Positions 1 to 54,493 of a DNA stretch of 56,826 bases are shown piece by piece; the stretch's first letter is position 1, and the number at the start of each line of letters is the position of its first letter. The translations under genes and the position numbers were made by a program. The DNA is taken from IMG/VR virus record IMGVR_UViG_3300045988_168418, one strand, 5' to 3'. The stretch comes from a virus. The notes under the pieces are model-generated. The model did not search any database. It saw nothing but the letters and a program-made list of their open reading frames with translations, and was not told the DNA's origin.

Positions 1-119
1 ATCTAAAAGTCTAAAAATAAAATCAAAAAACGAGAATTAAAAATCTCTCCAAAAATTTTTTCAAATCTAAAAGTCTAAAAATAAAATCAAAAAACGAGAA
101 TTAAAAATCTCTCCAAAAA
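1..119. repeat. Two copies of a 55-bp direct repeat (1-55 and 65-119) with a 9-nt T-rich spacer; each copy contains the sub-repeat 'tctaaaa'
   Basis: Read directly: 'atctaaaagtctaaaaataaaatcaaaaaacgagaattaaaaatctctccaaaaa' occurs identically at 1-55 and 65-119. Confidence 0.8.
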
Positions 120-203
120 ATTTTTTTAAACAAATTAAAATAAAAAAGGATTTTAAAAAAATAAAAATATTTCTCATTTTTCTCTTTAAAACTACCCGCG
201 ATA

Positions 204-2830: not shown

Positions 2831-4030
2831 ATGAATTATACTTGTAACAAATGCGGAAAGTCAATGGATGAAATAAATTTTTATACATATAAAAATGGTA
2901 AAAAAACAGAATTATGTAAAAAATGTTTAACTATGCATATAAATAATTTTGAACCTAATACTTTCCTATGGGCATTAGAAAAGATGGATGTTCCATATGT
3001 TCCAGAAGAATGGAATATTTTAAGGGATAAAGCCTATGCAAAAGACCCTTATAAAATGAATGGGATGTCAGTATTTGGAAAATATCTTTCTAAAATGCGG
3101 CTAAAGCAGTGGAAAGATTATAGTTGGGCAGATACAGAAAAGATTGCTCAAGAAAAAGAAGAAAAGACTCAAAAGGATCTTGAACAACAGAAAAAGTTTG
3201 AAGAAAGTATGAAGCAACAGCTTGAAAAAGGTGAAATTTCTGAAGCTGAATACAAAACGATGGTTTCTACCCCCACTCAAAACGCGGAATTGGCGGTAAA
3301 AGCTCCTAAGAATGAGATTGGAACTGACAATTTTTATGATGAAAATAATTTTATAAGCGAGGATGAATTAATTGATCCTGCCGCGGAATTAACTCAAGAA
3401 GATAAGATTTACTTAGCTATGAAATGGGGACGTTTGTATAAACCAAATGAATGGGTTGAACTAGAGAAAAAATATGAAGAGATGACTAGTTCTTTTGATA
3501 TTCAAGACTCAGATACTACAGGAACTTTAATTCTTATTTGCAAAACTTATTTAAAGATGAATCAGGCGATCGATTGCGGTGACATGGATGGCTATCAGAA
3601 GTTGTCCAGAGTATATGATTCACTACGTAAATCCGCGAAATTCACAGCCGCACAAAATAAAGAAGTAAAAAGTGATTTTGTAGATTGTATTGGAGAGATG
3701 GTTGCCTATTGTGAAAAAAATGGCGGTCAGATTCCAAGGATGAAAATAGATGCACCAAATGATATAGTTGATAAAGTTATCATGGATTTAAAAGAGTATA
3801 CAAGATCATTAATCTATGATGATAAGTCTCTTGCTCAACAGATAGAAAATTATATTAAGCAGAGAGAAAATGCTGATGCAATGAAGAAAGATAGAGAAGA
3901 AGCTAAAGAAAAAGGCTATAATCAGATAGAAATAAAAGATAGAGATTATCAAGCTTATTTTGAAAATATTGCAAAAGAAAAAGAAGAAGATGAAAAAATT
4001 TATATAGGAGAGGATGAAGACTTTATATGA
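2831..4030 (+). CDS. Hypothetical protein with N-terminal zinc ribbon and charged coiled-coil middle region (candidate small terminase/packaging accessory; function unknown)
   Basis: N-terminus 'CNKCGKSMDEINFYTYKNGKKTELCKKC'; RBS AAGGAGG; sits immediately upstream of the large terminase. Confidence 0.45.
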   Translation: MNYTCNKCGKSMDEINFYTYKNGKKTELCKKCLTMHINNFEPNTFLWALEKMDVPYVPEEWNILRDKAYAKDPYKMNGMSVFGKYLSKMRLKQWKDYSWADTEKIAQEKEEKTQKDLEQQKKFEESMKQQLEKGEISEAEYKTMVSTPTQNAELAVKAPKNEIGTDNFYDENNFISEDELIDPAAELTQEDKIYLAMKWGRLYKPNEWVELEKKYEEMTSSFDIQDSDTTGTLILICKTYLKMNQAIDCGDMDGYQKLSRVYDSLRKSAKFTAAQNKEVKSDFVDCIGEMVAYCEKNGGQIPRMKIDAPNDIVDKVIMDLKEYTRSLIYDDKSLAQQIENYIKQRENADAMKKDREEAKEKGYNQIEIKDRDYQAYFENIAKEKEEDEKIYIGEDEDFI

Positions 4031-4371
4031 GTTTAAAAGGTCTATTAGATTTATCTGAATCTAGAACCCTTAAGAAACAGGGCATGTCAGAAGAAAGACT
4101 AAAAGCTCAACTTCCTCATTTAAGAAATCTAATCGCTTATTATAGAGAATATCCAGACCTTTTGGTAGACTTTATGAAAGGTCCTGAGAGTACTTTTAAA
4201 TTCTTTTTTTATCAGAGAATATTTTTAAGGATTACGATGCGGCATAGGTATGTGTATGCTACTTTTCCACGTGCGTATAGTAAATCATTCTTATCTATGA
4301 TGATTCTTATGTTAAGGTGTATTCTCTATCCTAATTCACATTTGTTTGTTACTACTGGTGGTAAAATATAA
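4027..4371 (+). CDS. terL: Terminase large subunit, exon 1 (N-terminal ATPase with Walker A region)
   Basis: 'FFFYQRIFL...ATFPRAYSKSFL' resembles the T4 gp17-type 'YQR...PRQxGKT' Walker A region; 'FVTTGGK' aligns with gp17 'ILAHKGS'; the ORF stops inside the putative intron. Confidence 0.55.
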   Translation: MSLKGLLDLSESRTLKKQGMSEERLKAQLPHLRNLIAYYREYPDLLVDFMKGPESTFKFFFYQRIFLRITMRHRYVYATFPRAYSKSFLSMMILMLRCILYPNSHLFVTTGGKI

Positions 4372-5341
4372 ATTTTAAAGTAAGGAGGAGCATAAAATGA
4401 GTGCAAAAAACGTCCTAACTAATTTTGAGATAATTGATACTGAAGAAAAAGCTTATTGGCTAGGTTTTTTATATGCGGATGGAAGTGTTGGTTCTAAAGA
4501 AGATAAAATAGAATTGGGGCTTGCTGAAAAAGATTTAAAACATATAGAAAAATTTAGAGATTTTATGAATATAACTAATAAAATTAGCTATAGAGAAAGA
4601 ACAAAATCTTATAGAATGAGTTTTAGGAGTGCTCAATGTAAACAGGATTTAATAGATAAAGGGTGCGTTCCTAAAAAATCATTAATTCTTGATTTTCCAA
4701 ATGAAAAACAAGTACCAAAACATTTAATTAGACATTTTATAAGAGGGTATTTTGATGGCGATGGATGGTTTACAAATACAGAAAGTTGTTTTCAAATAGG
4801 TATAATTGGAACTGAAAATTTTATAAATGGATTTTTAAATTCTATTGAGAATATAAATAAAGATAATAAAATTTTTGATGTTCATAGAAAACATGGAGCT
4901 AAACGATATGTTTTTGGAGCTTATGATGATGTTTTAAATTTTTTAAATTGGATATATAAAGATTCAAATATTTATTTAGAAAGAAAATATGCTAGCTATT
5001 TAGACTTTATACAAAATGGAAGTAAGTATCATAAAATAAAATAAAAATTTTTGCCGTATATTAGAGAAATTTAATATATGATTATTGCGGAATTAAGCGG
5101 GGAAGGCTGAGATGCTAACCCGAACCGAAGGTTATAGGAACTATAGTCAGGGGCAACGCATAGATGGTGAAAAGATATAATCCATCCACGAGTCCGCAAC
5201 ACAGCATTATATAGGAATGCTTGAGACTATCTCACCAATAGTCAAACCTAACGTAAAACGAGGGTGAAAAGATATGCTAAGCTTATACGAAAAAGAAGTA
5301 TAAGAACTAAAGGATAAAAAGCCTTTAGGATAATATAACTG
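4363..5341 (+). other. Group I self-splicing intron interrupting terL (approximate ends: 5' splice after U4362, omega-G at 5341)
   Basis: terL homology resumes in-frame at 5342 with no start codon; a 7-bp P4-like pairing 'ttgcgga' (5085-5091) / 'tccgcaa' (5193-5199) resembles P/Q elements; R-like 'gagacta' (5223-5229) and S-like 'aagatataatcc' (5172-5183); contains a free-standing LAGLIDADG ORF. Confidence 0.55.
4397..5044 (+). CDS. LAGLIDADG homing endonuclease (intron-encoded, two-motif monomeric type)
   Basis: Motifs 'YWLGFLYADGSV' and 'RGYFDGDGWF'; own RBS 'aaggagg' upstream of the ATG at 4397. Confidence 0.85.
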   Translation: MSAKNVLTNFEIIDTEEKAYWLGFLYADGSVGSKEDKIELGLAEKDLKHIEKFRDFMNITNKISYRERTKSYRMSFRSAQCKQDLIDKGCVPKKSLILDFPNEKQVPKHLIRHFIRGYFDGDGWFTNTESCFQIGIIGTENFINGFLNSIENINKDNKIFDVHRKHGAKRYVFGAYDDVLNFLNWIYKDSNIYLERKYASYLDFIQNGSKYHKIK

Positions 5342-6748
5342 AAAGAGCAGGCTGCCAGTATCACCATAGCGAAAATTGAAGAAATATGTAAGCTTATCCC
5401 CGCACTTAATAATGAGCTAGATTGGTCAAGGGGAGCTTCTAAAAAATCAAAAGATGATGTTAATTATATCTTTAAAAATGGTTCTTCTATTGATATATTA
5501 GCCGCTAAACAATCTTCTAGAGGCCAGCGTAGAACGGGTGGTTTAATGGAAGAATGTGTTCTTATAGATGGAGATATATTAAATGAAATAATAATTCCTA
5601 CAACAAACGTTGATAGATTATTACCAGATGGAACTAGACATAAAGAAGAAATAATTAACAAGAGTCAAATATATATTACAACAGCTGGGTGGAAGAATTC
5701 ATTCGCGTATGACAAACTGACGGAACTTTTGGTTCAGTCTATGATTGAGCCTGATAAAGTTATGGTTATGGGTGGAACGTATGAAACGCCTGTTGCGGAA
5801 GGGCTTTTAGATGAAGATTTTGTAGATCAGCTCAAATTACAAGGTACATTTAAAGAAGATTCTTTTGATAGGGAATATCGTTCTAAATGGAGCGGAGATG
5901 CAGAAAATGCATTTTATTCTTCTGAAAAGTTTGATAGGTATAGAGTGTTATCCCAACCAGAATACGAATATAGCGGAAGAAGTAGTAAATCAGCTTATTA
6001 TGTTATAGGGGTAGACGTCGGACGTATAGGCTGCACAACTGAAGCTTGCATATTCAAAGTTACCCCTCAACCGCAAGGAACGGCTTTAAAAAGTTTGGTT
6101 AATATCTATACTTATGAAGCAGAACATTTTGAGACTCAAGCAATTAATTTAAAAAAATTATTTTATAAATATAAAGCTAAAATTATCTCTATTGATGCGA
6201 ATGGCTTGGGTATCGGGCTCATCGACTTCATGACAAGGGCGCAGATTGACCCAGAAACAGGAGATACTCTTCCGCCATTTGGAGTTGAGGGAGGAACATC
6301 AGAGGATGCTATTGCTCCTTACAGAAAAATTAAAGGCGGAGATGTGGAAGATAATGCTTTATATTTAATTAAAGCAAACGCACCAATTAACACTGAAGCC
6401 TATTCATACACTCAGACTCAAATGTCTAGCGGAAAAATTAAATTTTTGAAAGATGAGTCTGAAGCTAAAGCTAAACTAATGTCATCAAAAGTTGGTCAGA
6501 ATATGGATGCGGATAAAAGAAACGAATATCTAAAACCTTTTGTTTTAACAACAATTTTAAGAGAACAAATGCTAAATCTAGTTGAAGAAAATGAAGGAGT
6601 TAATATTATTTTAAAACAATCTTCAAGAGGTATAAAGAAAGATAAATTTTCTGCTTTTATATATGGATTATATTATATAAAGCAGGAAGAAGACCATAAG
6701 AAAAAGAAACGAAGTAGAAATATATCAGATTTTATGTTCTTTAGCTAA
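5342..6748 (+). CDS. terL: Terminase large subunit, exon 2 (rest of ATPase plus nuclease domain); the ORF track starts at 5546 but the frame is open and homologous from 5339
   Basis: Upstream in-frame translation 'KEQAASITIAKIEEICKLIP...IFKNGSSIDILAAKQSSRGQRRTG...ECVLID' parallels T4 gp17 '...NGSxIxAxASSxDAVRGxS...YIDE'; downstream 'GVDVG' and 'SIDANGLG' nuclease-type motifs. Confidence 0.6.
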   Translation, partial: KEQAASITIAKIEEICKLIPALNNELDWSRGASKKSKDDVNYIFKNGSSIDILAAKQSSRGQRRTGGLMEECVLIDGDILNEIIIPTTNVDRLLPDGTRHKEEIINKSQIYITTAGWKNSFAYDKLTELLVQSMIEPDKVMVMGGTYETPVAEGLLDEDFVDQLKLQGTFKEDSFDREYRSKWSGDAENAFYSSEKFDRYRVLSQPEYEYSGRSSKSAYYVIGVDVGRIGCTTEACIFKVTPQPQGTALKSLVNIYTYEAEHFETQAINLKKLFYKYKAKIISIDANGLGIGLIDFMTRAQIDPETGDTLPPFGVEGGTSEDAIAPYRKIKGGDVEDNALYLIKANAPINTEAYSYTQTQMSSGKIKFLKDESEAKAKLMSSKVGQNMDADKRNEYLKPFVLTTILREQMLNLVEENEGVNIILKQSSRGIKKDKFSAFIYGLYYIKQEEDHKKKKRSRNISDFMFFS

Positions 6749-32220: not shown

Positions 32221-32604
32221 ATGGTAGATGTATTAATGGTATTTTTAAAATTAGTTATTATGGTTGTTGTTCCAGTAGCAACATCAGTTTTAACATTCTT
32301 ATTAAAAACTTATCTTGAAGAATTAATTAACAAAAATGTTCAAAATGAAACTGCGGATGCTCTAAAGAAAGGACTAAATATTATTTTAGATTCAGTTAAT
32401 TATGTTCAACAGACATACGTAGATAATTTAAAGAAAGAAGATAAGTTTACCGCGGAAGCTCAGTCTAAAGCTCTTCAAAGTGCAAAACAACGTGCTATTG
32501 AATTAATGAATACTGATGTCCAATCCGCAATTGAAGCTAGTTACGGTAACTTGGATACTTATGTTACTACAGTAATAGAAAGTTTAATAAAGAAAAATAA
32601 ATAA
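32221..32604 (+). CDS. Small membrane protein (one N-terminal TM; holin-like, LL-H-type architecture possible)
   Basis: 'VLMVFLKLVIMVVVPVATSVLTFLL' TM segment followed by an amphipathic charged tail; translationally coupled to the upstream ORF. Confidence 0.3.
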   Translation: MVDVLMVFLKLVIMVVVPVATSVLTFLLKTYLEELINKNVQNETADALKKGLNIILDSVNYVQQTYVDNLKKEDKFTAEAQSKALQSAKQRAIELMNTDVQSAIEASYGNLDTYVTTVIESLIKKNK

Positions 32605-32611
32605 GAAAGGG

Positions 32612-32640
32612 GAGAGGCGGGTTCATCCCGCCTATTTTTA
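32612..32640 (+). terminator. GC-rich terminator/attenuator hairpin
   Basis: 'aggcggg-ttcat-cccgcct' followed by 'attttta'; sits 3 nt before the next ATG. Confidence 0.5.
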
Positions 32641-32642
32641 GT

Positions 32643-34043
32643 ATGGATAAAATTAAATTAGTAAAAATATCTTTAGATGATGGTGCTAGTTATGGTGAAG
32701 AAATTCCTATTGGTGTAGAGGCTTCTAATGTAGATTTACCAGATGGAACTAATTTAGGTGATTATTTAGAAGATATGAAGATTGCGAATGAACTTAAAGC
32801 AAGTTTAAAATCTGCCAGATTACGTAATTATCAAGGAGAAGTTCCTGTTGGGGCGAGAAGCTTGACTATTGGATCAAATAATAGAGCAGTTGGAGAAGAT
32901 TCTTTTGCAGAAGGAAAAGCAACCTATGCAGTAGGTAATTTTTGCCATGCTGAAGGTAATGGTACTACTGCGGGTTTTAAAGACACATCAACTGGTAAAA
33001 CAACTTATGCAGCACATGCTGAAGGCGGTAATACTCAAGCTTTAGGAATGTATTCTCATGCAGAAGGATATAATACAATAGCTAAAGCAAATATGTCTCA
33101 TTGTGAGGGTTTTGGCGGAGAAGCAAGAGGTACTAGTTCTCATGTAGAAGGACTTGGAACTATTTCTCATGCTTCATATCAGCACGTACAAGGAAAATAT
33201 AATGTAGAAGATATTGAAAATAAGTATGCCCATATTGTAGGCGGTGGCACAGGTAGTTCTGAGGATCAAAGAAAAAATATTCACACTCTTGATTGGTATG
33301 GTAATGCTGTATATTCAGGAGATGTTACTATAACTGTTGAAGGAGAGCAAATACCTCTATCTTCTATAGTTGATGTTTTTCGTACTGGAGCTGCAGCTCA
33401 TAATTCAGTATACAGAGGAAAGTTCTTAGGGGATACTATTACTCCAGAACAAGCTTCTGCGATTAATGATGGGACTTTTAAAAATTTATATTTAGGCGAT
33501 TATTGGACTGTTAATGGAGTCAATTATAGGATAGCGGATTTTGATTATTGGATAAATAAAGGCTTTCCAGAGGTTGATAAAACAAAAGTTCATCATCTTG
33601 CTATTGTTCCAGATAGTTGTTTAGCTACTGGACAAATGAATTCTTCCCTTACTACTAATGGTGGATATATAGGTTCTGGAATGAAAACAAATATATTAAA
33701 TACTGTTACATCAAATTTACCAGATACTTTTAAATCAAGAATACTATCTCGTAGAATTATGGCTGAAGGAACTTGGACTGTCGCTACATTAGATCTGATG
33801 AATGAAGTGATGGTATATGGCTGCTATGTTTATACCCATAACAATAATAAACAAACCTCTGACAGTAGACAATTAAATTTATTTCGTTTCAATTCAGGTT
33901 TACTAAATATCAATAGTGATTATTGGTTGAGAGATGTATCAAGCGAAACTAAGTTTTGCTTAAATTCTCAATATGGAGATGCGAGTAGAGATGATGCTAC
34001 TAGCACTTATGGTGTTAGACCTATTTTTGCGATAGGTGGCTAA
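32643..34043 (+). CDS. Tail fibre/receptor-binding protein with tandem 'HAEG' beta-helix-like repeats
   Basis: Repeats 'FCHAEGNGT', 'AAHAEGGNT', 'YSHAEGYNT', 'MSHCEGFGG', 'SSHVEGLGT' with a ~14-15-residue period. Confidence 0.5.
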   Translation: MDKIKLVKISLDDGASYGEEIPIGVEASNVDLPDGTNLGDYLEDMKIANELKASLKSARLRNYQGEVPVGARSLTIGSNNRAVGEDSFAEGKATYAVGNFCHAEGNGTTAGFKDTSTGKTTYAAHAEGGNTQALGMYSHAEGYNTIAKANMSHCEGFGGEARGTSSHVEGLGTISHASYQHVQGKYNVEDIENKYAHIVGGGTGSSEDQRKNIHTLDWYGNAVYSGDVTITVEGEQIPLSSIVDVFRTGAAAHNSVYRGKFLGDTITPEQASAINDGTFKNLYLGDYWTVNGVNYRIADFDYWINKGFPEVDKTKVHHLAIVPDSCLATGQMNSSLTTNGGYIGSGMKTNILNTVTSNLPDTFKSRILSRRIMAEGTWTVATLDLMNEVMVYGCYVYTHNNNKQTSDSRQLNLFRFNSGLLNINSDYWLRDVSSETKFCLNSQYGDASRDDATSTYGVRPIFAIGG

Positions 34044-34141
34044 TATAGGTTTTTAGTAGCTCTATATGGGTAGAACTATTTAATTACTTTTTTCTTTTTT
34101 TAAAATATTGTGAAGAAAGACAAAATAGGAGGGCAAGTTTT

Positions 34142-34624
34142 GTGATAGAGCTATTAGCAAAATATTCTTTATCAGAAATTGCGGCTTTTTTAATCACTTT
34201 TGCTTTGGCTATAAAAGGAGTTATTTCTTTTTATGATTGGGCAACTGAACGATTAAAAAAGGCTTTTAGTAAAGAGACGCAGAGAGATAAAGAAAAAGAA
34301 GTATTAGAAGAGAGATTGGTTTATGGAGCTGATAAAATGCGGGCTTTAGACAAACAACAGAAACAAACTAATGAACAATTAAAAGCAATTCATAAACAAT
34401 TAGAAATGTTAATTTCTTCTGATAAAGATGATATAAAAGCTGATTTAACTAAAGATCATCATTATTTTTGTTATGAAAAAAAGTGGATAGATGATTATAG
34501 CTTAGATTGTATGCAAAGAAGATTTGAAAGATATGTAGAAGAAGGCGGCAATTCTTTTATTGAAAAATTGATGGATGAAGTTAAAGATTTACCAAACCAG
34601 CCGCCTTCTGATTTAGATAATTGA
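34142..34624 (+). CDS. Membrane-anchored coiled-coil protein (GTG start)
   Basis: GGAGGG RBS 8 nt upstream of the GTG; N-terminal TM 'IAAFLITFALAIKGVISF' followed by a charged helical region. Confidence 0.35.
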   Translation: MIELLAKYSLSEIAAFLITFALAIKGVISFYDWATERLKKAFSKETQRDKEKEVLEERLVYGADKMRALDKQQKQTNEQLKAIHKQLEMLISSDKDDIKADLTKDHHYFCYEKKWIDDYSLDCMQRRFERYVEEGGNSFIEKLMDEVKDLPNQPPSDLDN

Positions 34625-42653: not shown

Positions 42654-42698
42654 CTAGCCAAGAATAATATTTATTGTTATTCTTGGCTATTTTTTTTG
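42654..42698 (+). terminator. Rho-independent terminator closing the tail operon
   Basis: 'agccaagaataa' (42656-42667) pairs with 'ttattcttggct' (42677-42688); followed by T8. Confidence 0.7.
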
Positions 42699-42853: not shown

Positions 42854-43336
42854 ATGTATCAAAATTTACAACAACTGCAAAACAGTCCTTATTACCAATA
42901 CCCTTATAATCAACAATATCAACGCCTGGCACAATTAGAGCAACAACAACAGATGAATACTCCGTATAATACTATGGTTTCTCAAAATCAAAGTTTTTTA
43001 AAAGGTAGACCAGTAGTATCCATGGAGGAAGCCCGTGCCGCACAGATTGATTTAGATGGTTCGTTGTTTATTTTTACTGACATAGGAAATAAAAAGATTT
43101 ATACTAAACAGATAAATCTTGATGGAACTGCTACTTTAAACACTTACTCTCTTGTAGAAAATGTAGCACCAATAGAAAGTTATGTCACTAAAACTGAATT
43201 TGAAAAAGCCATCTCATCAATTAGAGAAGAAATGGTTAAAAAGGAAACATTAGAAAGGAATGTAGATAATGACTCAATTAAACAGCAACAATCTGGAACA
43301 ACTAAAAAAGCAGTTTGCAAATCATCCTCTTTTTAA
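42854..43336 (+). CDS. Q/Y/N-rich (prion-like low-complexity N-terminus) protein with folded C-terminal domain; the track starts at 42827, ATG 42854 preferred
   Basis: 'MYQNLQQLQNSPYYQYPYNQQYQRLAQLEQQQQMNTPYNTMVSQNQ' followed by '...IDLDGSLFIFTD...INLDGTATL'. Confidence 0.4.
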   Translation: MYQNLQQLQNSPYYQYPYNQQYQRLAQLEQQQQMNTPYNTMVSQNQSFLKGRPVVSMEEARAAQIDLDGSLFIFTDIGNKKIYTKQINLDGTATLNTYSLVENVAPIESYVTKTEFEKAISSIREEMVKKETLERNVDNDSIKQQQSGTTKKAVCKSSSF

Positions 43337-43466
43337 TAGAGCAGAACAAATGGTATCTGGAAAAACACCAGAAGAGATAGAGCAAATTGCAAAAAATTTA
43401 TGCCAGCAAAGAGGAATTAATTTTGATGAAGCATGGAAAATGTTTCAGCAACAATTTAGATTTTAG
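43269..43466 (+). CDS. Small hypothetical protein overlapping the previous gene by 68 nt in the +1 frame
   Basis: Own ATG with 'aaaggaa' RBS-like sequence; 65 aa. Confidence 0.3.
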   Translation: MTQLNSNNLEQLKKQFANHPLFNRAEQMVSGKTPEEIEQIAKNLCQQRGINFDEAWKMFQQQFRF

Positions 43467-43520
43467 CGTACAAGGCTTTTATGGAAAACAAATTATAAAT
43501 TATAAAAAAGGAGATTTATT

Positions 43521-44270
43521 ATGGGAATGATGAATGATGGATTAAGTATCGCTGATGCTATGGCTTTAGCAAAAGATGGAGATTGCACTGGATTCGGCGG
43601 AAATGGCACTTGGATTTGGGTGTTCTTCTTATTTTTCTTGTTAGCTTGGGGCGGAAATGGCTTCTTTGGTAATAGAAGTGGAGTAGACAGTGCCGCAGTT
43701 CAAGGAGCTTTAACAAGAGCAGATTTATTTGAAGGATTTAACAACAGCGATGTTCAAAGACAATTACAAGGATTATCTAATGGACTTTGTGATGGATTCT
43801 ACGCTCAAAATACAACTATGTTAAATAGTTTTAATACTGTTGGGAGAGAGCTTTGTCAAGGTTTTGGCGGAGTCAATAGTAATATGAGTTTAGGTTTTGC
43901 AGGAATCCAATCTGCAATTAATGATGCAAAATTTGCGGATCAGCAATGCTGCTGTGAAACGAATCGCAACATAGACGCGGTTCGCTATGAAAACTCTCGT
44001 AATACTTGCGATATTGTAAATGCAATTCGTGAAGATGGAAATACTACAAGAGCGTTAATCAATGCTAATACAATGCAAGATTTAAGAGATAAATTAGCAG
44101 ATAGAGATAGAGATCTTATGACCGCAAATTTTCAATTAAGTCAACAGGCTCAAAGTGCTAATTTGATTGGAACTTTAAGACCTTATCCACAACCAGCTTA
44201 TATTACTTGCTCTCCATATGAAGCTTCCTTATTAGGAAACAGAATTTATAATGGATGCGGCTGTAACTAA
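43521..44270 (+). CDS. Cys-rich membrane protein (one TM near the N-terminus; 'CCCETNRN' cluster; ends 'GCGCN')
   Basis: RBS 'aaaggaga'; TM 'WIWVFFLFFLLAWGG'; about 11 Cys in the extracytoplasmic part. Confidence 0.4.
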   Translation: MGMMNDGLSIADAMALAKDGDCTGFGGNGTWIWVFFLFFLLAWGGNGFFGNRSGVDSAAVQGALTRADLFEGFNNSDVQRQLQGLSNGLCDGFYAQNTTMLNSFNTVGRELCQGFGGVNSNMSLGFAGIQSAINDAKFADQQCCCETNRNIDAVRYENSRNTCDIVNAIREDGNTTRALINANTMQDLRDKLADRDRDLMTANFQLSQQAQSANLIGTLRPYPQPAYITCSPYEASLLGNRIYNGCGCN

Positions 44271-44322
44271 TCTTAATAGAATACGGGCGGAGAGTCTCCG
44301 CCCAAGAAAGGAAATATAAAAT

Positions 44323-44772
44323 ATGGGATATACAATAAACAAAGCATATCAAAAAAGCGTATTAAATGCTGTATCTACTGCAAATGAGACTCTAACAACA
44401 GGACAAGTTCTACCATTTACTAATATTAATATTCTAAATGGATGTTCTATCAATTATATTGCTGGTTCTTCTTCAATCCAGTTAAAGAAACCAGGAGTTT
44501 ATCTAATCAGTGTAGACGCTATCGCCGCAGAGTCTGGAACTGCGGGAACTGTTACTATGCAATTACAAAAGAACGGAGTTAACGTAGAAGGAGCAACAAG
44601 TAGTTCTAATTCCGCGGCAGTAACAGACTTTAATGGAATGTCTTTTTCAACTGTTGTTAAAGTTTTACCTTCTTGTGCTTCTATTGATAATACTACTACT
44701 CTAACTGTATTAAATACTGGCGTAGGAGCTATTTATTCTAATACTAATATAACTGTAATTAAATTATGTTAA
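44323..44772 (+). CDS. BclA C-terminal/C1q-TNF-like jelly-roll domain protein
   Basis: 'PGVYLISVDAIAAESGTAGTVTMQLQKNGVNVEGATSS...' parallels the B. anthracis BclA CTD 'TGFYKITVIANTATASVLGGLTIQVNGVPVPGTGSS...'; judged by eye. Confidence 0.4.
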   Translation: MGYTINKAYQKSVLNAVSTANETLTTGQVLPFTNINILNGCSINYIAGSSSIQLKKPGVYLISVDAIAAESGTAGTVTMQLQKNGVNVEGATSSSNSAAVTDFNGMSFSTVVKVLPSCASIDNTTTLTVLNTGVGAIYSNTNITVIKLC

Positions 44773-44787
44773 TGAGGAGGCTATGTT

Positions 44788-45336
44788 ATGGCAGAAACAA
44801 TATCTCCGAAAGCAACAATAGAAGAAAATACAAATGAGGACATGATGGTTAAGATGATGGAGCAGAATCTAGAAGGAGTAATGTTTCATTTATTTGAAAC
44901 AGACTTATATGATTTATTAAAATTACCTGGATTTAAGGCTTTACATCACCACCAATCACAAGAAGAGACTGAAACTCTTGAGCTTTTAAAACATAAATAT
45001 ATTGAGAAATATAAAAAATTTCCAATCTTAAAAACAAAAAGTATTGACCGTTGGGAAGAAAACGAGGATTTATATAAAGATTTATCTGAAGAAAAAATTA
45101 TTTCTTTAGTGAAAGAATCTATGAAACAATATGCTGATTGGGAAAGCGAAGTTTTAGAACATCTATTACAATGGAAAAGAAATGTAGAAGATAGAAAGAT
45201 CGTGCATAAAATGATAGAAGATGTCATGCAAGAGATAAAGCATATAGAAACATTAATGGACATCTTAGAAGAACATGATTATAATTATCAATGTATCTGT
45301 GAAATCTCTGATTACCTTAGTCGTAGATATAAATAA
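44788..45336 (+). CDS. Highly acidic helical hypothetical protein
   Basis: RBS 'gaggagg'; E/D-rich 182 aa. Confidence 0.4.
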   Translation: MAETISPKATIEENTNEDMMVKMMEQNLEGVMFHLFETDLYDLLKLPGFKALHHHQSQEETETLELLKHKYIEKYKKFPILKTKSIDRWEENEDLYKDLSEEKIISLVKESMKQYADWESEVLEHLLQWKRNVEDRKIVHKMIEDVMQEIKHIETLMDILEEHDYNYQCICEISDYLSRRYK

Positions 45337-45365
45337 TGGGAGCTATTTAGCTCCCATATTTTTTT
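45336..45365. terminator. Bidirectional terminator between the convergent arms
   Basis: 'atgggagcta-tt-tagctcccat' followed by T-run 'attttttta' on the plus strand. Confidence 0.6.
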
Positions 45366-50016: not shown

Positions 50017-50607
50017 TTATTGCCCATGCATAAAATCTACAATAGGCTCAAAAGAATCAAACATACTAGGGGCATAATCAGATTCATTATAAAAAGTTAC
50101 ATATTCAAAATTAATGTCTGAAAAATCTCTTTCATCAGCAAGGAACCTTCGACAAATTTCTTTACAATCTGGATTATATTCTCTTCTTAAAGCTCTTTTT
50201 AATCTTTCCTTTCCTGGCACTTCTATTAAAACTGGTAGTACCTCTATTCTTTCATCTTTCAATAATTGCCTAATTCCCGCGATACTAAAAACACCAATAT
50301 TTATTTTATCTTTATCTAACTCTTGGATAGAAGTGCCATATAGCCATTTTTTAAAATAAACTGCATCTATTATATCTTTATCGCGAACTCGCCTTTCAAA
50401 ATCCTCGCGATATAGAAAGTAATAATCTACGCCATCTCTTTCGTATTCTCTTGGCGGTCTAGTAGTACAACTAATAATTTCTTTTATTTCTGAATGATTG
50501 CAACACATTCGTTTTTTTATAGTATCTTTTCCTGCACCGCTCTTTCCGAACAGTGCAAGAACTTTATATTTTGACATTCTATTCTCCTTCCATACCATAT
50601 CTAACAT
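50017..50607 (-). CDS. Guanylate kinase-like nucleoside monophosphate kinase
   Basis: P-loop 'GKSGAGKDT'; 'SCTTRPPREYERDGVDYYF' matches the guanylate kinase 'STTRxxRxxExxGxDYxF' motif. Confidence 0.55.
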   Translation of the reverse strand: MLDMVWKENRMSKYKVLALFGKSGAGKDTIKKRMCCNHSEIKEIISCTTRPPREYERDGVDYYFLYREDFERRVRDKDIIDAVYFKKWLYGTSIQELDKDKINIGVFSIAGIRQLLKDERIEVLPVLIEVPGKERLKRALRREYNPDCKEICRRFLADERDFSDINFEYVTFYNESDYAPSMFDSFEPIVDFMHGQ

Positions 50608-53600
50608 GCTCTAGTTTCATATCTGAACCATTAACGTCAATAATTTTGTAGAGCTGATGGGTAGGGGTGTGTTTATACGATTTAGTCTGAAATGTATCTC
50701 CACGCCTAAACCCGGTACACATTACTTTTGTTCCTCTTTGAAACCAGCCTTTTTCCATAACTTTTTTAGTTCCATCTTCTTGCTTTTCAGAAATTTGTCT
50801 CCCAAACATAGCAAAGTAATCTTTTGTAAATTTTACATTAACAACTCCAGAAGTTGTTAATAATGATATTGAAGAACGAGCATCATTTTTACTAATTACA
50901 GTACCAATGATTTTATAAGTTTTGTAAATAGGAATTTCTTTTCCATTTCTTTTGAAAAAATAATCTACAACAGGCTCTTCGGGTAATTTAGAAAAATCTG
51001 AAATTCCATACTTTAAAGTATCAATATTTATTAACTCATGCGGATGGTAGTAAAAACATAAGCTTTCCATTTCCCACGCTGAGATATTTCCTTTAGCATA
51101 TTTATTCCAAGAGTCAAGAAATAGAGCCTCATTAAATTCTTTTAATACTGTCTGTTGATTTTCTTTAAGCCAGTCTCTAGCTCTATCCATACCTTTTTGA
51201 TACTTTTTATCCCATTTGTTTTGTAAAATACAAACGCATCCGTTTATTACTTCAAGATCTTCCATATCATACCTTTGATTGTAGAATTTTTCACAAGCAT
51301 CATCAAAGACATAATATTTTCCAACTTTTTTCTCAGTCTTTAGATATTTATTAAAGAAAAATAATCTTTTCATACTATCTAAAGAAGGTGGAATTAAGTC
51401 TTTTTGAATTAAACCATTAAAGTTTTGTAGCGTTAATCTTTTCTTTGGCTCGCTAACAACAGATAAATAATATATCATTACAAGCACTCTTGGCTCAACA
51501 TTTAATTCTTTTGCCCATTCTAATTCTAGTTTATCAAAGGCTCCGCTCTTTATTAAAGAAATCATTGCAGATTTATTTAAAGGACATCTTATCATAAAAT
51601 CTTTAATACTTTTATATGGTCTACCAGAAAAAATCTGCTCAATAATTGGTGTGCCTACATTACTCAATGCTTTCATTCCAAAAAGAATTTCGTTATTTTC
51701 AGCATCTGGTTTAAAACTATAGTCAGATTTATTTATATCAACTAAGGAAACCTTAATTCCTCTATCAATTATTTCCCCTAAAGCTTGAGCCATTTTAGCA
51801 TAATCTGTTGTTTTTTCTTTCTTCTTTTCTTCACTTTCATCTGTTATTTCATATTCAATTTCATCATCTTTTTCTTTATATGTTTCGATAGACCCGCTAT
51901 TTACAATAAGACAGGCTGTATTCCAATATATAATTGGATATTTATAAGCCAAATTCATTTCTTGTAAAGCAACCAAAGAATACGCTAAACAGTGACTTCG
52001 ATTAAAAGAATATCCTCTCTGTACCTTAAGTAAAACATCCCAAACATAATGTGCTAAAGTCTCTGAACAATTATTTTTTTTAATATTTTCGTAAAAAATA
52101 TCTTCACATTCTTGAAAGAGTTTTCCCTGTTTTTTAGCAATACCTTTACGACACTTGTCAGCAAAAGTAAGAGAATTCCCGCCTAGTCTTGGCTCTTGTA
52201 CTAAAGACATCAATCCTTCTTGAGATTCGCATATTCCATTAGTAATTGCTGAGTGATTAGAAAGCCACTTTATCTCTTCTTTTGATAAACCATACCTTTC
52301 CATTTCTCTTATCCACACATTAATGTCTTTTCTATAAATTGCCCACATTTCAAGAGGGGTTTTACTATTTTTGTCAGGAGCCATTAAACGAATAACAGAA
52401 TTAAGTACACTTAAATCGTTGACCGATCTTGGCTTAGCTAATTTAATCCCTTGAATTCCGCTTTGTTGCTCCATCTGAAATAATGATAAGATTTTATGAT
52501 TCCACACCATTTCCCACATCTTTAAATCATCTCTTTCAATGTTATATACACCTATAACTTCTTCGTATGTCTCTCTTAAAGTAGGTTTTTTAATAATCTT
52601 TTTATCCTCAATTAGTAGATTTAGACAAGCGTGAATTTTGTCCATAGCTTCTACAGATAAAGCGTCATATTTTATTAGACTTACTTCCTCCGCATCATGG
52701 AGATCAAATTGTGTTGTAATTGTACCATCTGGTGCTCTCATTAAGGCAGTAGATTTAGTAAAAGGCTCATCTACAAAAATTACTCCGCCAGCATGAATAC
52801 CAGTTCCGCATATGAGTCCTTCAATTCCTTGAGCTACTTCCCATAAATCGGGATAATTGTTTGTCATCTCATTAACAAATATTGTATTAGGTTTAAAATC
52901 TTTTTCCTTATTTCCATAAAAAACTTCTTTTAAAGTTCTAAGCTGTCCTCTATCAGAAGGAATCAAAGATGCCAAATAACTTGCTATATCATTATCATAT
53001 CCTAACCCTCTCGCAGCGGTAAGAATAGCTGCTTTTGATTTTTCCGTTCTAAAGGTTAGAACATTTGCTACCCTATCTTCACCGTAAAATTCTCTAAATT
53101 TATTTAAAACCTGTGGACGACGTCCGCCCTCTATATCAAAATCTATGTCGAGAACAGAAACTCTTTCTGGATTTAAGAAACGCCAAGCATAACATTTAGT
53201 TTCTTCTCTTAAAGGATTAATTTGAGTTATACCTAAACAATATAACAAAATAAAACCAACCCCTGAGCCTCTTCCTGGACCTACTATGGAACCCGCTTCC
53301 CAACATAAATCTATAATTTTTTGAAGATTAAGATAATATGCTGACCAATGCGTTTTATTAACATTAGAAGATAACCACGTAGTTTCGAGATTACTATTTA
53401 TTTCATCATAAGCTTCTTTATTTTGTAAATCAGGGTGAGTTAATATACCATGAATTATTGCTTTTACTAGTACTTTATCCCCAATATAATCAGAATCTAA
53501 AAAAGTTTTAAAGAATGGTATACGATCAATCCATCCTTCAGTTACTTCAATGGAAGAATAATTATTCCATTGCAAAGTAGGAATTTTAAGAGGTTTTCTA

Positions 53601-54493
53601 ATGTCAAAGTCTTCACATAAATCTCTCACTTTTTCGATGTTATGAAAGCCTCTTTCTATCTCTTGAGAAGTAAGACTTAAATGTTTGATTAAATCCTCTG
53701 TATCCATTAAATAAGTTGTGGAGTAAAAAGAATCTACTTCTCTTTCTCCTTCTTTTGCTTTTAAAAAAGCTTTATGTATTTCTCTATCTTCTGCTTTAAG
53801 ATAATGTGTATCACAAGTTATTATATAATCTATATTTAATTCTCTTGATATATCTATAAGTTTAGAATTAACATAAGTTTGTTCTGCTGAAGCAGAAGGT
53901 TGTAACTCAAGATAAAAATAATCTTTTCCGCCAAAGGTACGACACATTAGTTTACACCAATTAAGAATTTTTTCCCATAATTTATCATCATTAGATTGCT
54001 TATGCTCAAGTAATTTAGTTGGTAGAAATCCACCCAAACATGCAGTACTCGCAACAACATGACCTGGATTAGCACCGATAATTTCTATTATATCTTCATA
54101 ATAGGTTGGAACTCTACGCATGCCTCTACTTTTGTAACTTCTTAACCATGCTCGCGTAGATAATTCACAAATTTGTTGAAAGCCTATTTTATCTTTTGCT
54201 AATAAGACAAAATGATAATACTTATCTTCTTCAGTTATAAAATTATCTTTATTTAAGCCGTCTCTGCATAAATAAATTTCATTTCCCATAATAATTTTAA
54301 TTTTGTCTTTAAGTTTGTCTTTTATTTTAGAGATTTTAACAGCAGAGGCAATAGTCTCATGATCTGTTATTGCAACAACAGAATGACCTAATTCAATGGC
54401 TCTGTTAATTAAATCTTCTTCTTTAATAATACAATCTCTTAAACGAAAATTAGACATTTGGGTATGATTATGTAAAGAGCCTGTATAGTTCAT
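50579..54493 (-). CDS. dnaE: DNA polymerase III alpha subunit (DnaE-type, N-terminal PHP domain)
   Basis: PHP domain 'LHNHTQMSNFRLRDC...VVAITDHE'; 1304 aa; overall DnaE-like layout. Confidence 0.7.
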   Translation of the reverse strand: MNYTGSLHNHTQMSNFRLRDCIIKEEDLINRAIELGHSVVAITDHETIASAVKISKIKDKLKDKIKIIMGNEIYLCRDGLNKDNFITEEDKYYHFVLLAKDKIGFQQICELSTRAWLRSYKSRGMRRVPTYYEDIIEIIGANPGHVVASTACLGGFLPTKLLEHKQSNDDKLWEKILNWCKLMCRTFGGKDYFYLELQPSASAEQTYVNSKLIDISRELNIDYIITCDTHYLKAEDREIHKAFLKAKEGEREVDSFYSTTYLMDTEDLIKHLSLTSQEIERGFHNIEKVRDLCEDFDIRKPLKIPTLQWNNYSSIEVTEGWIDRIPFFKTFLDSDYIGDKVLVKAIIHGILTHPDLQNKEAYDEINSNLETTWLSSNVNKTHWSAYYLNLQKIIDLCWEAGSIVGPGRGSGVGFILLYCLGITQINPLREETKCYAWRFLNPERVSVLDIDFDIEGGRRPQVLNKFREFYGEDRVANVLTFRTEKSKAAILTAARGLGYDNDIASYLASLIPSDRGQLRTLKEVFYGNKEKDFKPNTIFVNEMTNNYPDLWEVAQGIEGLICGTGIHAGGVIFVDEPFTKSTALMRAPDGTITTQFDLHDAEEVSLIKYDALSVEAMDKIHACLNLLIEDKKIIKKPTLRETYEEVIGVYNIERDDLKMWEMVWNHKILSLFQMEQQSGIQGIKLAKPRSVNDLSVLNSVIRLMAPDKNSKTPLEMWAIYRKDINVWIREMERYGLSKEEIKWLSNHSAITNGICESQEGLMSLVQEPRLGGNSLTFADKCRKGIAKKQGKLFQECEDIFYENIKKNNCSETLAHYVWDVLLKVQRGYSFNRSHCLAYSLVALQEMNLAYKYPIIYWNTACLIVNSGSIETYKEKDDEIEYEITDESEEKKKEKTTDYAKMAQALGEIIDRGIKVSLVDINKSDYSFKPDAENNEILFGMKALSNVGTPIIEQIFSGRPYKSIKDFMIRCPLNKSAMISLIKSGAFDKLELEWAKELNVEPRVLVMIYYLSVVSEPKKRLTLQNFNGLIQKDLIPPSLDSMKRLFFFNKYLKTEKKVGKYYVFDDACEKFYNQRYDMEDLEVINGCVCILQNKWDKKYQKGMDRARDWLKENQQTVLKEFNEALFLDSWNKYAKGNISAWEMESLCFYYHPHELINIDTLKYGISDFSKLPEEPVVDYFFKRNGKEIPIYKTYKIIGTVISKNDARSSISLLTTSGVVNVKFTKDYFAMFGRQISEKQEDGTKKVMEKGWFQRGTKVMCTGFRRGDTFQTKSYKHTPTHQLYKIIDVNGSDMKLEHVRYGMEGE

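What the first reader, a model, noticed from the sequence alone, without database searches (positions are those of the whole stretch)
42854..45336. Terminal cluster of atypical proteins where a lysis cassette would be expected
After the tail-operon terminator come four proteins, and no lysin is recognisable. First, a protein with an extreme Q/Y/N-rich prion-like N-terminus ('YQNLQQLQNSPYYQYPYNQQYQRLAQLEQQQQ') and two 'I(D/N)LDG(S/T)' loops. Second, a 249-aa membrane protein with a single TM and a Cys-rich ectodomain (CCCETNRN, ending GCGCN). Third, a protein convincingly similar to the BclA exosporium C-terminal C1q/TNF-like domain, without collagen repeats. Fourth, a strongly acidic helical protein that could be a DNA mimic. 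The set may be a spore-surface or host-envelope-interacting or lysogenic-conversion-like module, or a novel lysis/egress system for a spore-former. I cannot match it to a described system.
Basis: partly seen in the sequence, partly recalled or inferred. Interest (0 to 1): 0.6.

Follow-up and report, generated by a model that had tools for sequence, protein, structure and literature searches.

The report
Widespread unexplained phage accessory gene cassette
The odd proteins after the tail genes (five, not four) are a self-contained, dispensable gene cassette that recurs in the same order in many gut-anaerobe phages; it includes a membrane protein and a BclA/C1q-fold protein, is not the phage's lysis system, and matches no described system.

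Summary
The sequence features are real.

- **C** is a BclA/C1q-TNF jelly roll, supported by profile, AlphaFold model and Foldseek. It has no collagen stalk.
- **D** is a divergent ferritin-like helical bundle. Nothing supports a DNA mimic.
- **A-A2-B-C** is the real unit. In 46 other loci (C. perfringens phages, gut Clostridia and Negativicutes phages, one crAss-like phage) the order A, small ORF, B, then C or an unrelated Cys-rich β-protein "C2" holds in about 90%.
- **B** has 2,382 clusters at 50% identity and no annotation. Group I introns split it at or near its most conserved motif in three lineages. A GC-rich hairpin follows it in most loci.
- **Dispensable.** phiCP39-O-type phages, about 96% identical in the flanks, lack the block.
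- **Not lysis.** A Holin_LLH holin lies at 32221-32604.
- **Host.** The window is about 42% of a roughly 135-kb SPβ-like phage linked to Megamonas funiformis, which as far as I know does not sporulate.

Best guess, at low confidence: a membrane-anchored helical stalk (B) with an exchangeable trimeric head (C). Function is untested.

The parts
42655..42689 (+). Intrinsic terminator ending the tail operon. It forms the upstream boundary of the cassette.
   Evidence: 15-bp stem followed by a T-run. C. perfringens phage 17DYC likewise has a terminator just before its A gene.
42854..43336 (+). Gene A, 160 aa. It has a Q/N/Y-rich low-complexity N-terminus (aa 1-46), a conserved β-rich core of about 60 aa carrying IDLDGS and INLDGT, and a helical C-terminal part. 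It belongs to phrog_21718, function unknown.
   Evidence: Family alignment A10. 973 homologues at E <= 1e-5, none named or with a Pfam domain among the 120 listed. No PDB relatives. pN/pS 0.05.
43269..43466 (+). Gene A2, 65 aa. It overlaps the 3' end of A by 68 nt.
   Evidence: It has homologues in the same slot in XP41-N3 (E 2e-11) and Dulem virus 39 (E 3e-8). The A2 HMM finds it in 22 of 41 loci, and 40 of 41 have a 50-110 aa ORF in that position. pN/pS 0.05 in its own frame. It is absent from the gene calls.
43521..44270 (+). Gene B, 249 aa, the hallmark of the cassette. It has an acidic N-tail, a short hydrophobic segment (W31-W43, nt 43611-43649) flanked by Gly-rich stretches, and two long predicted helices. 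Conserved Cys include CCCETNRN (nt 43947-43970). It ends with a Pro-rich stretch and then GCGC.
   Evidence: phrog_16490, E 1e-28. More than 7,800 homologues at 90% clustering. 2,382 clusters at 50% identity. Alignments A6 and A9. The AlphaFold model is poor, pLDDT 50. No Pfam, NCBIfam, PADLOC or PDB match. pN/pS 0.02.
43953..43954 (+). Site inside codon C145 where other strains of this phage carry a 1,067-bp group I intron with a GIY-YIG-type ORF. The allele in this window has no intron.
   Evidence: L053 and L054 compared with the window. Rfam Intron_gpI E 9e-10, 44.7 bits, below the gathering score of 50. L018 has an insertion with a homologous ORF at the same QQC motif. L020 has an ORF-less intron at 100.7 bits.
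44284..44304 (.). GC-rich hairpin (9 bp, 7 G-C pairs) between B and C. It is probably an attenuator or a 3' stabiliser that sets apart expression of A-A2-B from that of C-D.
   Evidence: A stable hairpin after B recurs in 30 of 37 loci (median z -3.7). Control regions upstream of B and of A are much weaker. 17DYC has a terminator in the same position.
44323..44772 (+). Gene C, 149 aa. It is a standalone BclA_C / C1q-TNF-like jelly roll with a short conserved N-terminal peptide and conserved Cys. It is the fastest-evolving gene of the cassette.
   Evidence: Strain divergence is 92.9% nt identity with pN 0.016, against 97-99% for most comparisons of A, A2, B and D.
44788..45336 (+). Gene D, 182 aa. 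It is a divergent ferritin-like helical protein. It is co-transcribed here but separable from the A-C core in other phages.
   Evidence: Profile A8 against ferritins 5ls9, 6txh and 1z4a, E 5e-4 to 2e-3. The D/G family is found in only 5 loci in all, counting the window. It is retained in phiCP39-O (gp45), which lacks A through E.
45336..45357 (.). Bidirectional terminator closing the cassette. It is shared with the convergent RuvC-like gene on the minus strand.
32221..32604 (+). Context rather than part of the cassette: a Holin_LLH holin inside the tail operon.
   Evidence: PF09682, 40.4 bits against a cut-off of 24.9. phrog_13712 'holin', E 1e-21.

Best explanation
The region is an autonomous, horizontally mobile, non-essential accessory ('moron-like') cassette. 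Its conserved core is A-A2-B-C.

**Proposed mechanism (inferred, not shown).** B is the abundant, conserved subunit. It is anchored in the cytoplasmic membrane by its short Trp-capped hydrophobic segment. Its two long helices and Cys-rich motifs build an oligomeric, probably trimeric, stalk. C is a trimeric C1q/BclA-type β-sandwich. It is made in smaller amounts because of the hairpin after B. It is the exchangeable distal or partner element, docked by its short conserved N-terminal peptide or by Cys or metal bridges. A (prion-like low-complexity region, β core and helix) and A2 (small, partly M/Q-rich) are assembly or scaffolding helpers.

The complex would act at the membrane or envelope of the infected or lysogenic cell. 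Candidate roles are excluding other phages, or changing what the cell surface or membrane debris binds. It would not lyse the cell.

D is a co-transcribed ferritin-like neighbour, not a core part.
For: **Shown**
- Terminators bracket the unit.
- The order A, small ORF, B, then C or C2 holds in about 90% of 46 loci from phages of Clostridia, Negativicutes and a crAss-like phage.
- All five genes are under strong purifying selection.
- The block is absent from phiCP39-O, 26F, 13O, 34O and 9O, which are about 96% identical in the flanks to phages that carry it.
- Its position in the genome varies. It lies after tail genes here, after lysis genes in cr116_1 and several MAG loci, and in the early region of C. 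perfringens phages and Dulem virus 39.
- C has the BclA/C1q fold, which in all its top matches forms trimeric tips of fibres or membrane-bound ligands.
- The C slot is filled by two unrelated families, C in 16 loci and C2 in 23.
- C diverges fastest among strains. This is the behaviour expected of an exchangeable specificity element.
- A stable hairpin or terminator follows B in 30 of 37 loci. Pilus and virion operons use the same device to make more major subunit than minor subunit.
- B has one hydrophobic segment and long predicted helices.
- None of A, A2, C or D has an N-terminal signal sequence, read directly.
Against: - There is no direct evidence that B and C touch.
- The AlphaFold model of B is unreliable (pLDDT 50) and matched nothing.
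- The topology of B is ambiguous. The hydrophobic core is about 13 residues, the N-tail is acidic, and there are few flanking K/R.
- C has no export signal. It cannot reach the outer face of the membrane before lysis, so any complex must be cytoplasmic or form at lysis.
- No enzymatic or sensor domain was found that would explain exclusion.
- The cassette lies directly after the tail genes in this phage, which fits a virion role equally well.
Confidence: 0.3

Rival explanations
1. A dispensable virion accessory or decoration module. C is a trimeric adhesin that docks onto capsid or tail through its N-terminal peptide, comparable to Hoc or to side tail fibres. A, A2 and B are assembly factors or minor virion proteins.
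For: - Foldseek hits for C include phage fibre tips: the cyanophage A-1(L) short tail fibre CBD 8ke9 and the A4 portal-tail complex 9k09.
- BFVD hits include collagen-repeat and tail-fibre proteins of phages.
- In this window the cassette follows the tail genes directly.
- C lacks a signal peptide, so it is free only at lysis, together with virions.
- The cassette is dispensable. From my own knowledge, the λ side tail fibres are likewise dispensable in the laboratory.
Against: - In C. perfringens phages and Dulem virus 39 the cassette sits among early, replication or lysogeny genes, far from the structural operon.
- Standalone C-like proteins occur in records labelled Sipho-, Myo- and Podoviridae and the cassette occurs in a crAss-like phage, so it is not tied to one virion architecture.
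- C has no fibre shaft or baseplate-attachment domain.
- The most conserved member is a protein with a membrane-type hydrophobic segment.
Confidence: 0.2
2. A prophage- or phage-encoded exclusion or abortive-infection system directed against competing phages. B would be a membrane effector and C a sensor or decoy.
For: - It is a variable-position, dispensable, multi-gene cassette with its own terminators. This is the typical genomic behaviour of phage-borne defence loci, as a general inference.
- It includes a membrane protein.
- C evolves quickly and can be swapped.
Against: - There are no PADLOC hits.
- There are no nuclease, ATPase, NTPase or protease domains.
- The low-complexity, Cys-rich composition is atypical for known defence proteins.
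- In this phage it is transcribed in the same direction as, and next to, the late operon.
Confidence: 0.15
3. A lysis or egress accessory: a spanin-, antiholin- or fusogen-like device, or a novel lysis system.
For: - B has an N-terminal hydrophobic anchor, long helices and conserved Cys, which superficially resembles i-spanins or class I fusion subunits. The cr116_1 homologue is annotated 'spike protein/glycoprotein'.
- In cr116_1 and several MAG loci the cassette lies just downstream of endolysin or holin genes.
Against: - A holin exists elsewhere in this window.
- Carrier phages have an ordinary amidase plus holin.
- The block is absent from viable close relatives.
- It occurs in phages of both monoderm and diderm hosts.
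- I saw no lipobox-bearing partner.
- There are no holin or spanin family hits.
Confidence: 0.1
4. A spore-surface or exosporium-remodelling module, with the phage decorating host spores.
For: - The nearest structures to C are exosporium proteins: BclA, F-BclA and ExsFA/BxpB.
- Cys-, Tyr- and Q/N-rich composition and a ferritin-like neighbour recall spore-coat proteins (my own knowledge of CotJC, CotY/ExsY and CdeC).
- C2 has an N-terminal multi-Cys motif reminiscent of Ena subunits (paper PMC12357932).
- Confirmed carrier hosts include C. perfringens, which sporulates.
Against: - This phage is linked to Megamonas funiformis, class Negativicutes, which is non-sporulating as far as I know.
- A B homologue also lies in a crAss-like phage.
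- There is no collagen stalk and I saw no exosporium leader.
- Among the C2 members scanned there was no Pfam hit to DUF3992 or DUF4183, and the C2 profile found nothing in PDB.
Confidence: 0.05

Closest known systems
BclA / F-BclA C-terminal domain (Pfam PF18573; C1q-TNF superfamily; PDB 1wck, 9h38) and ExsFA/BxpB
   Same: C has the same all-β jelly roll of about 135-150 aa. The match covers the full domain, with TM 0.68-0.76 and top Foldseek ranks. The family profile gives E 8e-7 against 9h38. Relatives hit BclA_C at 5e-8 to 9e-9.
   Different: There is no collagen-like stalk, and I saw no exosporium-targeting N-terminus. C is a standalone 149-aa protein encoded by a phage whose likely host does not sporulate. 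The window protein itself does not reach any Pfam threshold, and relatives stay below the gathering score (33.2 against 38).
TNF-family ligands (type II membrane stalk with a trimeric TNF-homology head)
   Same: If B and C associate, the overall design is the same: an N-terminal membrane anchor, a stalk and a C1q/TNF-fold trimer. TNF and C1q structures are among the Foldseek hits.
   Different: Here the design is split over two polypeptides. Association and topology are untested, and there is no sequence relationship.
Phage fibre-tip or receptor-binding heads with the C1q-like fold (cyanophage A-1(L) short tail fibre 8ke9; A4 9k09)
   Same: The fold is the same, the genes are phage-encoded, the element is dispensable, and here it lies adjacent to the tail genes.
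   Different: There is no shaft or anchoring domain. The cassette is unlinked from structural genes in other phages. It always travels with a membrane protein.
Morons and lysogenic-conversion cassettes of temperate phages (λ bor/lom; the sublancin cluster at the end of the late region of SPβ; both from my own knowledge)
   Same: It is an autonomous unit between terminators in a variable region. It is present or absent among near-identical phages. The host phage is SPβ-like.
   Different: There is no sequence or domain similarity to any described moron. It has four or more co-ordered genes and is conserved across phages of different bacterial phyla.
Spanins and holin-antiholin pairs
   Same: B has an N-terminal hydrophobic anchor, long helices and conserved Cys. 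It is sometimes next to lysis genes.
   Different: It is dispensable, occurs in phages of monoderm hosts, has no lipoprotein partner that I could see, and has no family hits.
Prokaryotic ferritins (for D only)
   Same: The profile aligns nearly end to end with 164-173 aa ferritins, E 5e-4 to 2e-3. The size and the helical character match. I infer a four-helix bundle from this alignment.
   Different: The canonical ExxH ferroxidase motif is not conserved. The family has its own invariant H34, H53, E119 and E149. There is no Pfam Ferritin hit.

Membership tests
BclA_C / C1q-TNF-like domain (protein C) | Compact β jelly roll of about 130 aa, superposable on BclA CTD. | tested here: met
   AlphaFold pLDDT 87.6 and pTM 0.81. 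Foldseek against PDB puts BclA, F-BclA and ExsFA on top, E 3e-8 to 1e-6, TM 0.68-0.76.
BclA_C / C1q-TNF-like domain (protein C) | Sequence-profile match to the family model at its curated threshold. | tested here: inconclusive
   The window protein has no BclA_C hit at E <= 1. Four relatives hit with a best E of 9e-9. One relative at 40% identity scores 33.2 bits against a cut-off of 38. The family profile against PDB gives 9h38 at E 8e-7 and BclA at 1e-3.
BclA-type exosporium glycoprotein (whole-protein architecture) | Collagen-like GXX repeat stalk and an N-terminal exosporium-targeting segment. | tested here: not met
   The longest GXX run in C is 2. The N-terminus is a 12-residue peptide, MGYTINKAYQKS.
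BclA_C / C1q-TNF-like domain (protein C) | Homotrimer formation. | not testable with these tools
   Only monomer prediction was available.
Holin-endolysin lysis cassette | A muralytic enzyme domain together with a holin-family membrane protein. | tested here: not met
   No such domain is found in A, A2, B, C or D with Pfam, PHROGs or NCBIfam. The holin is elsewhere, at 32221-32604.
Spanin (i-spanin / o-spanin) | An outer-membrane lipoprotein partner, restriction to diderm hosts, and a requirement for lysis. | tested here: not met
   I saw no lipobox-type N-terminus in the cassette proteins (sequences). The cassette is present in C. perfringens phages. It is absent from viable relatives.
Ferritin-like superfamily (protein D) | A helical bundle of about 160-180 aa alignable to ferritin. 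| tested here: met
   Profile A8 against 6txh and 1z4a, profile positions 38-190 to chain residues 23-162, E about 7e-4. The evidence is weak but covers the full length.
Ferritin-like superfamily (protein D) | Di-iron ferroxidase ligands (E, ExxH, E, ExxH). | tested here: inconclusive
   An EE pair is kept, but the His of ExxH aligns to Thr. The family's own invariant residues are H34, H53, E119 and E149.
DNA-mimic proteins (Ocr / ArdA-like) (protein D) | Extreme acidity and similarity to a known mimic. | tested here: not met
   pI 5.04 and net charge about -15 over 182 aa. The only family-level similarity is to ferritins.
Known anti-phage defence systems (PADLOC-DB v2) | A match of any component to a defence-system model. 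| tested here: not met
   There are no hits for A, A2, B, C, D, C2, X1 or X3. Only noise appears for X4 and E, at E of 0.01 or weaker.
Moron (autonomous accessory transcription unit in a phage genome) | Flanked by transcription signals, and present or absent among otherwise near-identical phages. | tested here: met
   Terminators lie on both sides. There is an indel between 17DYC and phiCP39-O, whose flanks are 96-98% identical. No convincing σ70 promoter was found upstream.

The most novel reading that the evidence does not exclude
A-A2-B-C encodes a previously unrecognised phage machine that is very common in gut anaerobes. It would be a membrane-inserted trimeric 'spike'. Its conserved subunit (B) has a Gly-rich hydrophobic peptide, helix 1, a Cys-rich loop and helix 2, laid out like a class I fusion subunit. 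Its exchangeable C1q/TNF-fold head (C or C2) would confer specificity. Prion-like helper proteins would assemble it. It would remodel or fuse membranes, or act as a new kind of surface or exclusion device.
Probability: 0.15. Interest if true: 0.85.

Novelty: categorically new. Interest (0 to 1): 0.62.

Why it matters
B alone defines 2,382 protein clusters at 50% identity and more than 7,800 at 90%. None of the homologues listed carries a Pfam domain or an informative name.

The four-gene order is kept in phages of C. perfringens and in gut contigs assigned to Clostridia and Negativicutes. A B homologue followed by a β-rich protein also occurs in a crAss-like phage.

Self-splicing introns home into B's most conserved motif, which is something usually seen in important phage genes.

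A system this common and this well conserved, with no known function, is a real gap in understanding what gut phages do to their hosts. Natural isogenic pairs of cultured phages already exist (17DYC or XP41-N3 against phiCP13O or phiCP39-O), so the question can be tested directly.

The work also corrects the context. The phage is SPβ-like, probably infects Megamonas, and has a holin elsewhere.

Tried and rejected
- **Family searches.** Pfam, PHROGs, NCBIfam and PADLOC on all cassette proteins gave only PHROG families of unknown function.
- **PDB sequence and profile searches.** B, A and C2 returned nothing or coiled-coil noise.
- **Structure of B.** AlphaFold on B with 71 homologues gave pLDDT 50. 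Foldseek with that model returned no match. The structure of B is therefore unresolved.
- **C against C2.** hhalign shows they are unrelated.
- **Downstream families.** hhalign among X1-X4 and D found no relationship.
- **Endolysin.** No muralytic Pfam domain turned up in any window ORF of at least 45 aa that I scanned or within 10 kb beyond either end in a relative. The 466-aa protein next to the holin has no PDB relative. About 58 kb of the genome was not seen, so absence cannot be claimed.
- **Literature.** DUF7841, XP41-N3, the carrier phage names and BclA-like phage proteins gave nothing relevant. Only the F-ENA paper identified 9H38.
- **Rejected ideas.**
  - Chance cluster, because of the synteny.
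  - DNA mimic for D.
  - Replacement for the lysis cassette.
  - D as a core part of the cassette.


Full report
**1. What is at the coordinates**

The window has about 30% G+C. A long plus-strand structural operon runs from 1655 to 42646, and a convergent minus-strand replication and nucleotide-metabolism block starts at 45364. A strong terminator lies at 42655-42689. After it come five ORFs, not four:

| Gene | Coordinates | Length |
|---|---|---|
| A | 42854-43336 | 160 aa |
| A2 | 43269-43466 | 65 aa |
| B | 43521-44270 | 249 aa |
| C | 44323-44772 | 149 aa |
| D | 44788-45336 | 182 aa |

A bidirectional terminator at 45336-45357 closes the unit.

- The first 46 residues of A are 61% Q/N/Y, against 12% in the rest. 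IDLDGS and INLDGT lie at residues 65 and 87.
- B has a single hydrophobic segment (W31-W43) flanked by Gly-rich stretches. It has ten Cys, including CCCETNRN and a GCGCN end.
- D is helical but only moderately acidic, with pI 5.0.

A2 overlaps the end of A. Automatic gene calling on near-identical contigs does not call it. It has homologues in the same slot in other phages. Its pN/pS in its own frame is 0.05. All five genes have pN/pS of 0.02-0.08 among strains.

**2. Genome and host context**

B is 99% identical to a protein on a 136.5-kb metagenomic contig. Proteins of the cassette occur on hundreds of contigs, and none is longer than about 142 kb. Precomputed Pfam hits on flanking genes of these relatives are YonB, YonD_N, YonG_N, YorF and YorH. 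The window is therefore about 42% of a roughly 135-kb SPβ-like phage.

RefSeq holds D, C, the two halves of an intron-split B, and A under accessions within the run WP_440972056 to WP_440972061, all assigned to Megamonas funiformis. This species belongs to the class Negativicutes. From my own knowledge it is non-sporulating and diderm. The 'spore-former' premise is therefore doubtful.

A Holin_LLH holin (40.4 bits against a cut-off of 24.9; phrog_13712 E 1e-21) lies at 32221-32604 inside the tail operon. I found no endolysin domain in the window or within 10 kb beyond either end. About 58 kb of the genome was not seen.

**3. The individual proteins**

*C.* The window protein alone gives no Pfam BclA_C hit. 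Four family members do, with a best E of 9e-9. One relative at 40% identity matches over the whole domain at 5e-8, though at 33.2 bits it is below the gathering score of 38. The family profile hits the F-BclA C-terminal domain 9h38 at E 8e-7 and BclA at 1e-3. The identity of 9H38 comes from PMC12357932. The AlphaFold model is good, with pLDDT 87.6. Its best PDB matches are BclA, F-BclA and ExsFA/BxpB, followed by C1q and TNF proteins and two cyanophage tail or fibre proteins. In BFVD the best matches are standalone proteins of 130-150 aa from uncultured phages labelled Sipho-, Myo- and Podoviridae, two of them named 'BclA protein'. There is no collagen repeat.

*D.* A five-member family profile aligns almost end to end with prokaryotic ferritins, at E 5e-4 to 2e-3. 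The phiCP39-O homologue, gp45, was already annotated 'contains ferritin domain'. The canonical ExxH ligands are not kept. The family's invariant residues are H34, H53, E119 and E149. Nothing points to a DNA mimic.

*A, A2 and B.* They have no relatives in Pfam, NCBIfam, PADLOC or PDB. They fall in PHROG families of unknown function. AlphaFold on B failed, with pLDDT 50. It predicts only long helices at residues 77-121 and 150-219, and Foldseek found nothing.

**4. The cluster is a conserved cassette**

tblastn with B found 27 phage records. These include six C. perfringens phages, several 'Dulem' viruses and a crAss-like phage. A scan of species-representative genomes gave 46 loci, mostly phage-sized contigs in gut MAGs. 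Iterative HMMs on all ORFs of these loci gave these counts:
- A lies within 1.5 kb upstream of B in 38 of 41 loci.
- An ORF of 50-110 aa lies directly upstream of B in 40 of 41 loci. The A2 model recognises 22 of them.
- C, or an unrelated Cys-rich β-protein C2, lies directly downstream of B in 39 of 43 loci (C in 16, C2 in 23).

C and C2 are unrelated by hhalign. Further downstream, the genes vary. They include DUF7841 proteins, RG/Y-rich helical proteins, a small Cys/His protein and the ferritin-like D/G family.

B has more than 7,800 homologous clusters at 90% identity and 2,382 at 50% identity. Lengths are 109-309 aa among the best 150, so there are no domain fusions.

**5. Dispensability and mobility**

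In C. perfringens phages 17DYC, XP41-N3, CPD1, PMQ04 and HMD-PC1 the cassette lies between an antirepressor gene and Gam/Erf genes. This is several kb downstream of a normal amidase and holin. The cultured relatives phiCP39-O, 26F, 13O, 34O and 9O are about 96-98% identical in the flanks. They lack A through E, keep a truncated F, and keep the ferritin-like gene.

Elsewhere the cassette lies after an integrase (Dulem virus 39). In cr116_1 it lies 1 kb after a holin and an L,D-carboxypeptidase. In other loci it is next to endolysin domains, terminases or recombinases.

It is therefore a mobile, non-essential unit and not a core lysis or virion-assembly function. D is separable from the core.

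**6. Two regulatory and evolutionary signatures**

(a) A GC-rich hairpin lies between B and C at 44284-44304. Across loci the B-to-next-gene spacer folds far better than shuffled sequence in 30 of 37 cases, with a median z of -3.7. Over a fixed 60 nt downstream of B the median z is -2.55. The figures are -0.84 upstream of B and -0.29 upstream of A. In 17DYC the same position holds a canonical terminator. This implies that A-A2-B are made in excess over C.

(b) In other strains of this same phage, B is split inside codon C145 of the CCC motif by a 1,067-bp insert. The insert carries a GIY-YIG-type ORF and matches Rfam Intron_gpI at E 9e-10, 44.7 bits, just under the gathering score. L018 has a homologous insertion at the same motif. 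L020 has an ORF-less group I intron at 100.7 bits within or next to B, whose ORF there is fragmented. Homing into this motif fits the nucleotide-level conservation already seen.

C is the fastest-evolving member among strains, at 92.9% nt identity and pN 0.016.

**7. Interpretation**

What is shown:
- The unit is autonomous, conserved, selected and dispensable.
- B is the conserved hallmark.
- The slot after B is exchangeable and holds a C1q/BclA-fold protein in this phage.

What is inferred: B forms a membrane-anchored, probably trimeric helical stalk. C is its less abundant, variable partner or head. A and A2 are low-complexity helpers. The complex acts at the membrane or envelope of the infected or lysogenic cell (confidence 0.3).

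The main weaknesses are these. There is no evidence of B-C contact. The topology of B is ambiguous. A, A2, C and D have no export signal, so any complex must be cytoplasmic or form at lysis.

| Rival | Confidence |
|---|---|
| Virion decoration or accessory fibre | 0.2 |
| Anti-phage exclusion system | 0.15 |
| Lysis or egress accessory | 0.1 |
| Spore-surface module | 0.05 |

**8. Novelty**

C is a new, collagen-less, phage-borne member of the BclA_C/C1q fold family. D is a divergent ferritin-like protein. As a system, the cassette matches nothing described in the libraries or papers I could search. I rate it categorically new as a system, with its function unproven.

Noticed in passing
window 43953/43954 (gene B); L053 4101-5167; L018 about 4990-6130; L020 6325-6556: Group I introns interrupt gene B in three phage lineages. 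In L053/L054 and L018 the site is the CCC codons of the CCCETNRN motif, and both inserts carry homologous GIY-YIG-type ORFs. The third, in L020, is ORF-less and scores 100.7 bits with Rfam Intron_gpI; its exact site was not mapped. The allele in the window has no intron.
   Followed up: yes
window 44284-44304, and the B-to-C spacer in L001-L049: A GC-rich stem-loop immediately after the B stop codon recurs in 30 of 37 loci. Some copies have a T-run and look like terminators, and others do not. It probably sets the ratio of A-A2-B to the downstream genes.
   Followed up: yes
whole window; L059 and L060 (flanks in a 135.6-kb relative): The phage is SPβ-like, with Pfam YonB, YonD_N, YonG_N, YorF and YorH on relatives' genes. 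It is about 131-142 kb, very common in gut metagenomes, and its proteins are filed in RefSeq under Megamonas funiformis.
   Followed up: partly
window 4027-6748: A LAGLIDADG-type ORF (4397-5044) lies between two plus-strand ORFs (4027-4371 and 5546-6748) in the packaging and head region. This may be another intron or homing-endonuclease insertion that splits a gene.
   Followed up: no
window 50579-54493 (-); L003 17049-20750: The 1,304-aa DNA polymerase III alpha-type gene is intact in the window. In the 136.5-kb relative it is split into 365-aa and 842-aa parts by a GIY-YIG ORF, which looks like another mobile insertion polymorphism.
   Followed up: no
window 1-125: Two tandem direct copies of an A/T-rich unit of about 62 nt (ATCTAAAAGTCTAAAAATAAAATCAAAAAACGAGAATTAAAAATCTCTCC...) lie at the left end of the window.
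   Followed up: no
window 204-959 (-): A microbial-type PARG (poly-ADP-ribose glycohydrolase-like) protein, PF10021 at E 7e-26. It may be a counter-defence or ADP-ribosylation-reversal gene.
   Followed up: no
window 32221-34624: The Holin_LLH holin lies in the middle of the tail operon. It is followed by a 466-aa protein and a 160-aa protein with a hydrophobic N-terminus, both of unknown function. No endolysin domain was found anywhere in the window.
   Followed up: partly
L001 5715-6089 and 25 other loci (family C2): The alternative occupant of the C slot is a β-rich protein of 110-185 aa with an N-terminal M-x-C-x3-C-x2-C motif and further conserved Cys. This recalls the Cys-rich N-terminal connectors of Ena spore-appendage subunits. 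It has no Pfam or PDB match, and the structure was not modelled.
   Followed up: partly
L019 8785-9153, L022 2638-3006 and 6 other loci (family X4): A protein of about 120 aa with a conserved 'DCVxRAI ... GH' pattern often follows the cassette. The pattern suggests a Cys/His enzyme of the papain or transglutaminase type. There was no Pfam hit.
   Followed up: no
L052 2505-3261 (phiCP39-O gp44 and gp45): phiCP39-O-type phages keep only the C-terminal 78 aa of gene F and the ferritin-like gene. This looks like the scar of a deletion that removed A through E.
   Followed up: yes
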